A DNA stretch of 64,000 nt, from assembly GCF_009914755.1 (NCBI RefSeq), contig NC_060925.1; one strand, given 5' to 3'. A model generated the notes under the pieces. That model saw only the letters and a program-made list of their open reading frames with translations. It was not told where the DNA came from and made no database searches. Both the position numbers and the translations under genes were made by a program. Numbering within the stretch: the stretch's first letter is position 1; the number at the start of each line of letters is the position of its first letter. Below are positions 13,570 through 50,400 of the stretch, piece after piece. Source of the DNA: the human T2T-CHM13v2.0 reference genome, Homo sapiens.

Positions 13570-14960
13570 TTTCATTTGCAATAATGCCAAAGATCTGTTG
13601 TTAGTTTTGATTTAGACTCAGAGTAATGTAAAATTAGGAGAAATCACACATTGCCCTTAATACTGTGAAGATCGAATACCTAAAATTATCTTATTTACAC
13701 TATTTTACATAGGTTAAGTTCATGCTTTCAGAGAAGTCAGTGAAGAGTTAATCTCCAAAGCCCTTGGAGTTGGAACAAAACCTTTATGATGATCCTGATG
13801 TAGCTGAAGCTTTTATGGAGATTATTTAAATACATAACTTCACTGAAACCCTGTTTTCCGAGGCTTATGTTTCCAAATCGATCACTCTCGTGTGCTTTAA
13901 CTGATAGCTCCCGGTGATTCCACTAGTTACGGTCCAGATGTTATTTCCTCCAAGAGACTTTATTTGGTTTATACAACTGAACTAGATCCCTACTTCTCTG
14001 CATCTATGGCACCCTGTTCTGATCACACTGTATGTGTGGTCTCCCTAATGAGGCTTTAGGCTTTTATCTTGTTTACTGCCCTTTTATAGTATTTAGCACA
14101 GAGCCCTGGAATTCAGCTGCTCAATAAATATTTATTAATTCTATTGTTCACCCCAGTGTTAAAATAAGATCTTATCTTAATATTCCAAAGTATTTGAGCT
14201 TACCAAGGAGAAAAGTTCAGGGAAACAGAACTTAATCTCATTCTTCATGATTCATATTCACATTTTGCAGAAATATTACAGATAAGCTGAATCAAGGTAG
14301 CCAATTAAATGTTGAGAATCAAGAGTAAAGAAGATTTCTTCATGACTCTGCCTTAACCTTCCTGCATAACCCAGACCCTCAGTGTGGTTCTGCTTGGAGA
14401 GAGTCCTACATCCAGAACCCTGGGTTCCAGACCTCATAGCAGAACCCACACAGAAGCCTGCTAAGGAAGAAGACAAAGCAACAGTACAGTGACAGCAGAT
14501 AGGACAGGCAGTCCCAGGTATAAATTTGGTTGTAGGAATTGGAAATTATTTTATAGAGAAGAGTTGGTCTCTTTCTTATAATAACCTTAGAGTTGGTGTG
14601 ATCAGGTGCATTATTATGATTCCGAACTAATGGTCTCTGTCTCAAGACCAGACTCACTATGGTTCTATGCTGCAAGATGATTCATCAGGTAGGATTTCCC
14701 TACACACTGTAGCCTTACAATAGTCACCATCACCACAGGCTGAAATATCTTGTAAATAATCTTTACTGTGTCAGATTAACCATCAGCTGCTCTCTCTGGT
14801 TTTCCACTAGACAAACAGGGGCCATGGTAAGCTGCAATCAGAAGAGTCTCTCAGTGGATAAGATTCCAAAGTCATTTCTAATGGTTGTCAAGGCATGAGC
14901 ATATCAGCTTCCTGCTTGTGGAGCCTTTGTATCAACTTCCAAGGGAAAAGTATGTAGAAT
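13570..14960 (-). pseudogene. GBP pseudogene segment: intron 3 part, exon 3 (14358-14457), short intron 2, exon 2 (14658-14831)
   Basis: Colinear similarity to GBP4 ~5915-8900 including intron sequence. Exon 2 reads MAPVCLVENQREQLMVN (frameshift) ...QPVVMVTIVRLQCVGKSYLMNHLAA*NH. Exon 3 reads GFCVGSAMRSGTQG...LSKQNHT-EGLG. Splice sites retained. Confidence 0.9.
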
Positions 14961-15351
14961 TGCACTGACAGATCATAGAGCTCTTTCTCCAGTATGCCCA
15001 TTACTGTTGGTAAAATTGATGATAATAGGATATAATTGGTGTCTAAAGTCTCATTCTTCTAAAAATAATATTCTAGCTAGTGAATTCCTCTCTATATTAA
15101 TGCCTGGTGCAGATGCTTTATGTACATTATGCATTGATCCTTAAAAGAACCATAAATTAAAGTATTTGATCTCTTCTACTAGATGAAATAAAGGCAGTAA
15201 AGATATAGGCAAAATGATTGGTTACATATTTCATAGTCAGTGGTTGAAGCAAGAATTGAACGGTGATCTATTTTTCTCACTGTATTACTTGCAAAAAACT
15301 AACCCGTCAGAATCAACTTCCTAAAATAAACTCTTTTACATATATAATAAG

Positions 15352-48119: not shown

Positions 48120-48207
48120 CAGCATCATTCTAATACCAAAACCTGGCAGAGACCATGAAAAAAAGGACTTCAGGTCAATATCCCTGATGAGCACAAATTC
48201 AAAATTC

Positions 48208-50400
48208 CAGCACAAGTACCATCAACCATCAGGCCCTGGAGCAGGTGTATAGTATGTTTCCGAGAACCAAACCACCACATCTCATTGAATTTACAGAAAT
48301 TTCAACCAAGAGTGTTTCTTCTTTCCTTCTACCCAATTGTCGTAGTTGAAAAGAAGAAGATAGATGGCAAAAGTTGATGTTTAAAACCATGTTTCTGGAT
48401 GAGCATGGTGGCTCATGCCTGTAATCCCAGCACTTTGGGAGGCTGAGGTGGGCAGATCATGAGGTCAGGAGGTCGAGACTATACTGGTTTAACAGGGTGA
48501 AACCCCATCTCTACTAAAAATACAAAAAAAATTAGCCAGGCGTGGTGGCATGCACCTGTAGTCCCAGCTACTGGGGAGTTGAGGCAGGAGAATCACTTGA
48601 ACCTGGGAGGTGGAGGTTGCAGTGAGCCAAGATCGCGCCACTGCACTCCAGCCTGGGTGACAGAGTGAAACTCTGTCTCAAATAAATAAATAAATAAATA
48701 AATAAATACAAATAAAAAGGTTTTTCTAAGTGAGTCTTGGAAATTGTGGTGAAGGGCATTTCTCATTCTTTGGGTAAGATCCTAGCTATGTTACTCAAGT
48801 AAAAGCTCTAATCCGGGCAAAATTCTCTTTGACCCCTGATTAAGTAGATCACTTCACAGGGTTTGTGGTCTTTCCAGACTTTGCTTGGGCTGTATGAGAT
48901 GTCATGCTGGAGCTGAAGTTAGGTTGACACTCCACAACAGAAGATGAGTATCTGGAGAATGTCTTGAAGCTGATTCCAGATATTAGCATGGACTGGGTGG
49001 TGAAAAGTTTAGCAGGAGTGTGGAATAAACAAAGGCCTGCAATTCGGCACCTGACATATATGTTTGTATGAGCCTGGATCGAGGCTTATAGTAGTGGTGG
49101 TTTGTAATTGACAGATGGCCATGATTTTAGTGGTCGTTAATACCTGAAAATCTCCAGTGACTGGGGTTTAAATTCACTGAGGAAGTTTAAGACTCAATGT
49201 TCTATTCAACAATCTTAGACCAATTTGTACCATGAAAAATATATCCAGATTATAATATATGCTATAATTTCCTAAGGCCCAGATACTGTTTTCCTTATTA
49301 AGTGCTTCTCCTGTTCTTTGTTGAGAAAAATATCTTAGCAAATTTGAAGTGTATAAACATAGAATCATATGAAATAAAATGACCTAATTTTTAAAACACA
49401 TTTTACACAATATATTTTAGTAGTACCTGGTTAGTTATATCCTTGAAACAAAGGATATTTATACAATAAATAATCAAGAAAAAATAATGACATATCTTTT
49501 CAGTTAGATTGTCAAATCATTCATTTTACCTTTCTCATAATATCTCCCTTTTTATTCTACAGCCTTACGTACTAGGTAATCATTTCACTATTTTACATTT
49601 CTTATATATACTGTTATTTAGCAACATGGATAACTGATAGGATCTAAAGAAAATATCAATTTTTTCTTTATCCATTCATTTATTCAATCATTCAACAAAT
49701 ATTTACTGAATACTTTTGTTTGCCCCTGGATCACTCTATAAGTTTCTGTCAAATCTAAAAAGCTCTGATATTGGAAAGCAAAGAGGTCTTCAAATTACAT
49801 CTGACTCTTCAGAATTTTAATAATTAACATTACTCTATAATTCTATTAGTTATAGAATTTTAGAAGTTAACATTACTCTTTAGGATTTTCAGGTAAAGGA
49901 ATATTTATGGTGTGTGCCTGTTGGGGCTGATATTTATAAAAGTTTTTCTTAATGAAGTTGGGTATCATCTGTCCTTTTATTGTAATTTTTTCCAACAGTA
50001 TCCTATCCTTTTTTGGTATCTCTTTTTAAAGTCCTACCTCTTATTTCTTACAAAGATACAATAAAACCAGAAAAGTGCTTCTAACCCTTTTTCTTCATTA
50101 GTGAATCATTCAATAAATGTTTGTCAAATACTTAATCCGTGAAGTCTATACAACTACTGAGGAAACCAAACGTAAGTTGATTCCCCACACCACATTGGAT
50201 AGGTACCCCTTTTGTTTTCCAAAATTACCTTCTTGTCTGTTGTCTCTGAACAGAAATGGATTTTGCTTGCCTTAGACGAATGGCACGACATTGATTTGCA
50301 ATGAGGTATGACATTATTGGATTAAAGGAGATTTACAGGAAAAGGAGGTACAAAGATGCAAAAATCTGCAAATGAAAATCCTCAGCCCCTTGACTGGCTG
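48208..50400 (+). pseudogene. Inverted GBP pseudogene segment: 3' part of exon 4 (48208-48251), intron 4, exon 5 (48786-48979), intron 5
   Basis: AGT ACC ATC AAC CAT CAG GCC CTG GAG CAG = [10 protein letters not shown]. Exon 5 reads [61 protein letters not shown], with its donor mutated to AT. Introns match the reverse complement of GBP4 introns 4 and 5, ending ~35 bp before the exon 6 acceptor equivalent. Confidence 0.92.
48397..48718 (+). mobile_element. AluS in pseudogene intron 4
   Basis: Full Alu with (TAAA)n tail; imperfect TSD aaaa...tttct. Confidence 0.92.

What the first reader, a model, noticed from the sequence alone, without database searches (positions are those of the whole stretch)
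13570..50400. One hidden GBP paralogue apparently split by an inversion: exons 1-3 on minus, exons 4-5 on plus
Seen: three GBP-homologous blocks among the repeats. They are exons 2-3 plus part of intron 3 (13570-14960, minus), exon 1/promoter (29045-30950, minus) and the exon 4 tail to intron 5 (48208-50400, plus). The blocks cover non-overlapping, consecutive parts of a GBP gene; only ~1.1 kb of intron 3 and the 5' part of exon 4 are missing between them. Inference: a plus-strand gene (promoter-e1-e2-e3-e4-e5, head-to-head with GBP4) had its 5' ~20 kb inverted, with breakpoints near 13.57 kb and in the 31-48.2 kb L1 zone. That single event gives exactly this order. An alternative is two separate pseudogenes.
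Basis: partly seen in the sequence, partly recalled or inferred. Interest (0 to 1): 0.8.

Follow-up and report, generated by a model that had tools for sequence, protein, structure and literature searches.

The report
Old GBP4-like pseudogene in two pieces
Between the human immune genes GBP4 and GBP5 lie decayed remains of an old GBP4-like gene copy, its front part on one strand and its middle part on the other; one ancient flip of DNA would explain this but this genome alone cannot prove it, and it is an ordinary relic of gene-family turnover.

Summary
On the minus strand lie promoter, exon 1, exon 2, exon 3 and the first ~760 bp of intron 3. On the plus strand lie the last ~40 nt of exon 4, intron 4, exon 5 and nearly all of intron 5. 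Both sets are GBP4-type: their introns align to GBP4 and not to GBP6, and trees place them on the GBP4 side. Their neutral distances to GBP4 do not differ significantly (0.41±0.03 and 0.39±0.05 against 0.35±0.02). They do not overlap, and ~1.2 kb is missing between them.

Nothing proves the inversion either. No junction carries a signature, and no outgroup genome was available. About 1.1 kb of the 1.9 kb "promoter" block is inserted repeats, and its likeness to the GBP5 promoter is only a shared LTR family. The plus piece is a 2.2 kb island between two old L1 elements, each cut short at its 3' end. A second, independent GBP4-type exon 4-5 fragment lies about 150 kb away.

I put one copy split by an inversion at about 0.5 and two separate truncated copies at about 0.35. 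It is dead DNA of low wider interest.

The parts
13505..14330 (-). First ~760 bp of pseudo-intron 3. It ends in a TC-rich tract (13505-13575) that marks the left limit of GBP homology.
   Evidence: 13575-14518 to GBP4 5917-6860; three-way alignment with GBP4 and psiE; GBP4 has a shorter homologous TC-rich tract; no homology further left.
14321..14460 (-). Pseudo-exon 3, with 8-nt and 18-nt deletions.
   Evidence: tblastn to 14458-14321; alignment; K2P to GBP4 0.385 and to GBP6 0.381.
14461..14630 (-). Pseudo-intron 2, only ~200 bp long against 1685 bp in GBP4.
   Evidence: GBP4 6860 and 8349 map to 14518 and 14521.
14631..14825 (-). Pseudo-exon 2. The canonical ATG is kept. It carries a 1-nt deletion and an in-frame stop, and the P-loop is degraded.
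   Evidence: Pfam PF02263 at window 14659-14772, 21.1 bits.
14826..29226 (-). Pseudo-intron 1, swollen from 1.5 kb to 14.4 kb. GBP4 homology survives only at its two ends (14826-14922, 15094-15156, 29046-29226). It holds a 1.6-kb high-copy repeat (15632-17246), L1 pieces (17257-17686, 27483-28282) and an Alu-like repeat near 23 kb.
   Evidence: (12375 first-look candidates); 0 of 12 ORFs scanned have a Pfam match.
29227..29982 (-). Pseudo-exon 1 and TSS region, with an ISRE-like core shared with GBP4. A 415-bp insertion at 29474-29888 interrupts it. GBP4's exon-1 ATG reads AGG here.
   Evidence: GBP4 10281-10082 to 29439-29227; 10370-10286 to 29982-29894; the 100-bp core matches only GBP4 in the whole genome; the insertion has an inverted copy at 26678-27089.
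30015..30714 (-). LTR-like high-copy repeat inserted just upstream of the pseudo-TSS. It is not GBP promoter.
   Evidence: dozens of ~690-bp copies at 79-86%, from 5653 candidates of which 40 were scored; the GBP5 TSS region is a related repeat.
30887..30974 (-). Remnant of GBP4-type upstream promoter. This is the last GBP homology on the minus side.
   Evidence: GBP4 10625-10533, 70%, E 2e-8, colinear with the exon 1 matches.
31096..31586 (.). Young solo-LTR-like repeat. It is followed by 1.9 kb (31590-33500) that is unique in the genome.
   Evidence: copies at 88-94%; only the self match; no homologue in the cluster.
33492..48208 (+). Old L1 (positions ~1610-3713 of a full-length L1) split by nested insertions. 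L1b(-) occupies 35494-36099 plus 42292 to about 48119. L1b is itself split by the full-length L1a(-) at 36111-42268. The old L1 has lost its 3' part where it meets the exon 4 tail.
   Evidence: L1 coordinate map; 12-nt duplication at 35466/48120 and 11-nt duplication at 36098/42284..
48208..48250 (+). Last ~40 nt of pseudo-exon 4.
   Evidence: 29 of the last 32 nt match GBP4 (my count on the alignment).
48251..48786 (+). Pseudo-intron 4, with an Alu-like insertion at 48397-48714.
48787..48978 (+). Pseudo-exon 5, with 3 stops and a 3-nt deletion. The donor GT reads AT.
   Evidence: 34 bits; K2P to GBP7 0.272, GBP4 0.295, GBP6 0.348.
48979..50400 (+). Pseudo-intron 5, almost complete. It stops ~44 bp before the place of exon 6.
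   Evidence: GBP4 intron 5 aligns over 1-1413 of 1516; GBP7 intron 5 3' part aligns to 50047-50421, E 2e-20.
50401..54764 (-). Second old L1, on the minus strand. It also lacks its 3' end on the side facing the GBP island.
   Evidence: The two old L1s are 72-76% alike.

Best explanation
A GBP4-type gene copy arose from the GBP4 lineage after the GBP4/GBP6 split and long before the GBP4/GBP7 duplication. It lay on the plus strand, head to head with GBP4. It died early, or was never complete.

Its 5' part (promoter to about 760 bp into intron 3) was turned over. The left break lay at a TC-rich tract, now at 13505-13575. The right break lay upstream of the promoter. The flip may have been a later inversion, or part of the same complex event that made the copy.

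An old L1 then lay between the flipped promoter and the rest of intron 3. A deletion removed the 3' part of that L1, about 1.1 kb of intron 3 and about 70 nt of exon 4, creating the 48208 junction. A similar loss at 50400 removed whatever followed intron 5. Later LTR, L1 and Alu insertions spread the pieces over 37 kb.

The pieces encode nothing.

Shown here:
- the homology, strand, extent, paralogue type and decay of the pieces
- the nested L1 structure
- the cut L1 ends
Inferred, not shown:
- that the two pieces come from one copy
- the inversion itself
- the order of events
For: Extent:
- The blocks are real, consecutive and non-overlapping.

Type:
- Both are GBP4-type. Introns 1, 2, 3, 4 and 5 align to GBP4, while GBP6 aligns only at exons and in short intron 4.
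- Trees give psiA+GBP4 at 85/87 and psiC with GBP4/7 against GBP6 at 81/85.

Divergence:
- K2P to GBP4 is 0.406±0.029 (exon 3 plus intron 3) and 0.386±0.045 (exon 2) for the minus piece.
- It is 0.353±0.021 for the plus piece.

Copy count:
- Only one spare exon 1-3 fragment exists in the whole cluster.
- A one-copy reading therefore needs one fewer lost gene.

Distance between the pieces:
- With the nested L1s (proved by target-site duplications) and the LTRs removed, the promoter remnant and the exon 4 tail lie only ~4 kb apart.

The 48208 junction:
- The old L1 is cut at an internal position exactly where it meets exon 4.
- A deletion at that junction is therefore independently required, and it also accounts for the missing ~1.2 kb.

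Chance estimate (my inference):
- A 5' limit of an unrelated fragment would land within 1.2 kb downstream of the 3' limit of another, in a ~18-kb gene, about 7% of the time.
Against: - No positive junction evidence was found. The 3' remainder of the cut L1 is not left of 13575. The missing 1.2 kb is nowhere in the 264 kb searched.
- At least two extra deletions are needed.
- The plus piece is a 2.2-kb island between two old L1s that both lack the end facing it. That also fits erosion of an independent copy.
- psiE shows that other GBP4-type exon 4-5 fragments of similar age exist (K2P 0.432±0.028). It overlaps psiA in intron 3 by ~150 bp.
- Exon end branches differ (psiA 0.33, psiC 0.19), though they come from different exons and short alignments.
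- No exons 6-11 follow on the plus strand within the window.
- The nearest plus-strand exons 6-9 (psiD) overlap psiC in intron 5. They also share with GBP6 a SINE that psiC lacks, so they come from another copy.
- No outgroup genome could be examined.
Confidence: 0.5

Rival explanations
1. Two separate GBP4-type copies, each truncated. A minus-strand copy stood in tandem with GBP7 and GBP4 and lost everything from intron 3 onward through a deletion ending at 13.5 kb. A plus-strand copy stood head to head with it and lost its 5' part (together with the 3' part of the old L1) and its 3' part through deletions. That the two look complementary is chance.
For: - Tandem minus-strand copies are the pattern next door: GBP7 and GBP4 in the annotation given with the task.
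- The cluster holds at least three further stray fragments on alternating strands (psiD, psiE, psiF). Independent decay to islands is therefore common here.
- Both edges of the plus piece are deletion junctions against cut L1s.
- Exon end branches are unequal (0.33 against 0.19).
Against: - It needs one more lost gene copy, and a match of truncation points within 1.2 kb without overlap (about 7% by my estimate).
- No remnant of exons 4-11 or of a 3' flank lies left of 13575 (only repeats, plus one weak 100-bp hit at E 1e-4).
- No second exon 1-3 remnant exists anywhere in the cluster.
- The paralogue type is the same and the divergence is not significantly different.
Confidence: 0.35
2. Multi-step or long-range rearrangement. 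The minus 5' piece belongs with another fragment outside the window, for example psiF exon 7 and exon 10, or a lost partner of psiE. Alternatively, the plus island is a patch of GBP4-type sequence copied into a break between two tail-to-tail L1s.
For: - The island is flanked symmetrically by two old L1s, each cut at its 3' side.
- Turning over 50.4-110.2 kb would bring psiF exon 7 and exon 10 behind psiC on the plus strand (geometry).
- GBP5, a member of the other GBP clade, sits among GBP4/6-type genes. That implies old rearrangements in this interval (abstract and synteny passages of PMC12486975 seen via the find function; synteny passages of PMC10864436 seen via the find function).
Against: - psiE cannot be the partner of psiA, because the two overlap in intron 3.
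- Long-range models need more events than a local flip.
- The flanks of the two old L1s show no inverted duplication.
- Typing of psiF is uninformative: 74-76% to GBP4, GBP6 and psiD alike.
Confidence: 0.12

Closest known systems
GBP4 (the functional neighbour, window -7477..10320, minus strand)
   Same: It shares the exon-intron layout from promoter to intron 5. Introns 1-5 are alignable at 63-73%. The ISRE-like core at the TSS is shared (the motif name is recalled). It is the closest paralogue in trees.
   Different: The pieces carry stops, frameshifts and deletions in exons 2, 3 and 5. Exon 4 is mostly gone. There are no exons 6-11. The two halves lie on opposite strands. Intron 2 is shrunk to ~200 bp and intron 1 is swollen to 14.4 kb.
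LOC100421401, the RefSeq 'GBP family member 6 pseudogene' (48787..114355, plus strand)
   Same: Its start coincides with pseudo-exon 5 (48787), so the plus piece is already annotated as GBP pseudogene material.
   Different: By intron homology and by tree, the piece is GBP4-type rather than GBP6-type. The RefSeq span runs across GBP5. The minus-strand exons 1-3 are absent from the gene table supplied. I could not see that record's exon list.
GBP1P1-type unprocessed pseudogenes and birth-and-death turnover of the GBP cluster
   Same: These are decayed tandem or inverted duplicates left in the cluster. The GBP evolution papers describe this in general terms (passages found in PMC9005921; PMC10864436; PMC12486975).
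   Different: The GBP1P1-like locus at 221-236 kb keeps most exons in order on one strand. This copy is broken into oppositely oriented pieces. None of the passages I saw mentions fragments between GBP4 and GBP5.

Membership tests
GBP family (Pfam PF02263 GTPase domain), as a gene relic | Sequence homology to GBP GTPase-domain exons | tested here: met
   window 14659-14772(-) scores 21.1 bits, right at the curated cut-off. Window 48787-48981(+) scores 34 bits. One search gives the tblastn matches to GBP4.
GBP family, as a functional gene | Open reading frame with an intact P-loop and splice sites | tested here: not met
   stops in exons 2 and 5, frameshifting deletions in exons 2 and 3, exon 5 donor reads AT, exon 4 truncated.
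GBP4/6/7 clade | Groups with GBP4, GBP6 and GBP7 against GBP1, GBP2, GBP3 and GBP5 | tested here: met
   100/100 support for both psiA (exons 2+3) and psiC (exons 4+5).
GBP4-type (as against GBP6-type) | Closer to GBP4 than to GBP6 in exons, and introns alignable to GBP4 | tested here: met
   85/87 for psiA and 81/85 for psiC, which is moderate support; long intron alignments to GBP4 and GBP7, while GBP6 aligns only at exons and intron 4.
Single gene split by an inversion | The pieces are consecutive, do not overlap, lie on opposite strands, and share type and age | tested here: met
   The gap is ~1.2 kb. K2P is 0.41/0.39 against 0.35, about 1.4 standard errors apart.
Single gene split by an inversion | Breakpoint junctions that can be rejoined, such as a split repeat or matching flanks | tested here: not met
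   no L1 remainder left of 13575; the missing piece is absent; the flanks are unique.
Single gene split by an inversion | An outgroup genome with the uninverted, colinear arrangement | not testable with these tools
   Only this human assembly and prokaryote genomes are held. Papers were searched and read in part. None describes these fragments.

The most novel reading that the evidence does not exclude
The dead copy still does something. The 100-bp exon 1 / intron 1 core (29238-29335) is 87% identical to GBP4, against 63-73% everywhere else. In GBP4 it overlaps a RefSeq 'silencer', and the ISRE-like core beside it survives. The flipped promoter remnant may therefore have been kept, or repeatedly converted, as an interferon-responsive regulatory element acting on GBP4 or on the divergent lncRNA LOC107985076. 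In addition, the break may have occurred at a TC-rich, triplex-prone tract.
Probability: 0.1. Interest if true: 0.45.

Novelty: new member of a known kind. Interest (0 to 1): 0.25.

Why it matters
The work corrects and completes the map of a medically studied immune gene cluster.
- The minus-strand exons 1-3 are not in the RefSeq table supplied.
- The annotated "GBP6 pseudogene" start is GBP4-type.
- The apparent likeness to the GBP5 promoter is a shared LTR.

If outgroup genomes confirm the inversion, it would be a dated rearrangement marker for the history of the GBP4-GBP5 interval. It would not change what is known about GBP function. These are ordinary relics of birth-and-death evolution.

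Tried and rejected
I did not pursue it.
I fetched exon regions of GBP1, GBP2, GBP3 and GBP7 instead, so intron comparisons with those genes are partial.
- A split L1 as inversion signature: not found.
- The missing intron 3 / exon 4 piece elsewhere: found only in psiE, which is a different copy.
- Remains of exons 4-11 or a 3' flank left of 13575: none.
- The two old L1s as arms of an inverted duplication: only 72-76% alike, with no matching flanks. Undecided, and not used.
- psiD as the 3' continuation of the plus piece: rejected. The two overlap in intron 5, and psiD shares with GBP6 a SINE that psiC lacks.
- psiE as the partner of psiA: rejected because of a ~150-bp overlap in intron 3.
- The GBP5-promoter likeness of 30032-30714 as GBP homology: rejected. 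It is an LTR family.
- The 15632-17246 element as a cluster-specific duplication: rejected. It is a high-copy repeat.
- Pfam scan of 12 of the 18 ORFs of at least 90 aa listed for 15000-33600: 0 of 12 hit.
- Literature: two searches and passages of three papers mention no fragments between GBP4 and GBP5. Their figures and supplements were not seen and could show pseudogenes in synteny maps.
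Full report
**What was checked.** The window is T2T-CHM13 chr1:89032001-89096000. GBP4 lies on the minus strand at its left end. I compared GBP4 with the rest of the window. I then compared it with 200 kb further right and with exon regions of GBP1, GBP2, GBP3 and GBP7.

- Five of the ten matches of GBP4 beyond 12 kb are gene-body matches:
  - exon 3 plus 760 bp of intron 3 at 13575-14518
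  - exon 2 at 14521-14825
  - the end of exon 1 with the start of intron 1 at 29238-29335
  - the exon 4 tail with intron 4 at 48215-48396, inverted relative to GBP4
  - exon 5 with introns at 48715-49803, inverted relative to GBP4
- The first three lie on the GBP4 strand. E-values run from 5e-28 to 1e-142, except the exon 4 tail / intron 4 match (E 1e-9).
- The other five matches hit a ~300-bp repeat upstream of GBP4.
  - intron 1 remnants to 14922/15156 and from 29046
  - exon 1 and TSS over 29227-29982
  - a promoter remnant at 30887-30974
  - intron 5 to about 50400, 44 bp short of exon 6
- The Pfam GBP model sees pseudo-exons 2 and 5.
- The exons are dead. There are stops in exons 2 and 5, frameshifting deletions in exons 2 and 3, an AT in place of the exon 5 donor GT, and only the last ~40 nt of exon 4.
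- The 100-bp exon 1 / intron 1 core matches only GBP4 in the whole genome.

- Of the 1.9-kb "exon 1/promoter" block, 415 bp (29474-29888) is an insertion with an inverted copy at 26678-27089.
- A further 700 bp (30015-30714) is a high-copy LTR-like repeat. Its 70-74% match to the GBP5 promoter and to 113.3-114.0 kb reflects that repeat family. The GBP5 TSS region is itself such a repeat.

**Which paralogue.**
- Both sides belong to the GBP4/6/7 clade at 100/100 support, and lean to GBP4. psiA pairs with GBP4 at 85/87. psiC and psiE group with GBP4/GBP7 against GBP6 at 81/85.
- The intron evidence is stronger. Introns 1, 2, 3, 4 and 5 of the pieces align to GBP4 over hundreds of bases. GBP6 aligns only at exons and in the short intron 4.
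- K2P distances to GBP4 are:
  - 0.406±0.029 for exon 3 plus intron 3
  - 0.386±0.045 for exon 2
  - 0.353±0.021 for exon 4 tail to intron 5
- That difference is about 1.4 standard errors.
- GBP4 and GBP7 differ by only 0.092 over the same stretch, so the copy is far older than GBP7.
- With neutral rates recalled from memory, K of 0.35-0.43 points to the time of the early placental radiation. This is an inference.
- Exon distances are nearly as large as intron distances. The copy therefore died early or was born incomplete.

**The junctions.**
- Left junction:
  - GBP homology ends in a TC-rich tract at 13505-13575, which has a shorter counterpart in GBP4 intron 3.
  - Nothing further left resembles GBP4 intron 3, later exons or a GBP 3' flank.
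- Right junction, the "L1 zone" resolved:
  - An old L1 on the plus strand (L1 positions ~1610-3630 at 33492-35474, and 3622-3713 at 48120-48208) was split by L1b on the minus strand.
  - L1b was in turn split by the full-length L1a.
  - Target-site duplications of 12 and 11 nt prove both nested insertions.
- The old L1 stops at an internal position against the exon 4 tail. A deletion or breakpoint must therefore lie at 48208.
- At the other edge, intron 5 abuts a second old L1 on the minus strand from 50401. That L1 also lacks its 3' end.
- The 3' remainder of the first old L1 is not left of 13575.
- The stretch 31590-33500 is unique in the genome and has no homologue in the cluster.

**Other fragments, outside the window.**
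- psiD (plus strand, exons 6-9, 135.8-146.3 kb) overlaps psiC in intron 5. It shares a degenerate SINE with GBP6. It is not the missing 3' end.
- psiE (minus strand, 201.9-204.5 kb; intron 3, exon 4, exon 5, intron 5) is GBP4-type with K 0.432±0.028. It overlaps both psiC and the last ~150 bp of psiA. It is a separate copy.
- psiF (minus strand) keeps part of exon 7 and an exon-10-like piece at 107.6-110.2 kb.
- Only one spare exon 1-3 fragment exists in the cluster.

**Weighing the readings.**
- For the one-copy reading:
  - It explains the strand, order, type, age, non-overlap and small gap of the pieces.
  - The deletion that the cut L1 requires anyway also explains the missing 1.2 kb.
  - It needs one fewer lost gene.
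- By my estimate, chance complementarity of independent fragments is about 7%.
- Against the one-copy reading:
  - There is no junction signature.
  - Extra deletions are needed.
  - The plus piece has an island-like setting.
  - Independent GBP4-type fragments demonstrably exist in the cluster.
  - There is no outgroup.
- I put one copy split by an inversion (or born rearranged) at 0.5, two independent truncated copies at 0.35, and more complex histories at 0.12.

**Literature.** Two full-text searches and passages of three papers (PMC12486975, PMC9005921, PMC10864436) describe birth-and-death evolution and conserved synteny. PMC10864436 places bat GBP2 and GBP4 between KYAT3 and GBP5, with the cluster flanked by KYAT3 and LRRC8B. 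None mentions these fragments. Their figures and supplements were not seen.

**Verdict.** The feature is an ordinary, non-coding relic. Its value is in annotation, and possibly as a rearrangement marker.

Noticed in passing
L034 (C1:89014701-89015700) against window 8488-8682; L003, L033: GBP7 looks chimeric. Its exon 2 is GBP1/2/3-like (73.7% to GBP4), while exons 3-7 are GBP4-like (85-95%). The first part of intron 3 does not align between GBP4 and GBP7.
   Followed up: partly
C1:89116001-89116700 (L015:1-700), equal to window coordinates 84001-84700: The annotated GBP5 transcription start (84218) lies inside a high-copy LTR-like repeat with internal tandem repeats (3988 candidates, 40 scored, copies at 83-90%). 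Related copies lie at 30015-30714 and 113298-114734.
   Followed up: partly
C1:89167774-89178300 (window coordinates 135.77-146.3 kb): psiD is a plus-strand GBP pseudogene part with exons 6-9. Exon 7 is still open (149 bits), and a full-length L1 sits in intron 6. It shares a degenerate SINE in intron 5 with GBP6.
   Followed up: partly
C1:89233929-89236460 (window coordinates 201.93-204.46 kb): psiE is a minus-strand GBP4-type fragment (intron 3, exon 4, exon 5, intron 5) between GBP6 and the GBP1P1-like locus.
   Followed up: partly
C1:89139642-89142190 (window coordinates 107.64-110.19 kb): psiF comprises minus-strand remnants of exon 7 and of an exon-10-like piece of a GBP4/6-type gene, just beyond GBP5.
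   Followed up: no
Window coordinates 156.4-160.6 kb against 248.6-254.9 kb (outside the window): An inverted low-copy duplication, 80-88% identical, in pieces of 140-1325 bp.
   Followed up: no
window 29238-29335: The exon 1 / intron 1 core is 87% identical to GBP4 10092-10191, against 63-73% elsewhere in the pseudogene. The GBP4 side overlaps the RefSeq 'silencer 10124-10418'.
   Followed up: partly
window 13505-13575: An expanded TC-rich tract lies exactly at the left end of the GBP homology. GBP4 has a shorter homologous tract near 5885-5912.
   Followed up: partly
window 54870-59524: A younger L1 with an inverted 5' part. 54870-56004 is minus-strand (L1 6118-4984) and 56321-59524 is plus-strand (L1 1775-4979), with an Alu-like repeat between them. 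The layout is that of a twin-primed insertion (the mechanism name is recalled).
   Followed up: no
window 31590-33500: 1.9 kb with no other copy in the genome and no homologue in the cluster. It lies between a young LTR and the old L1.
   Followed up: partly
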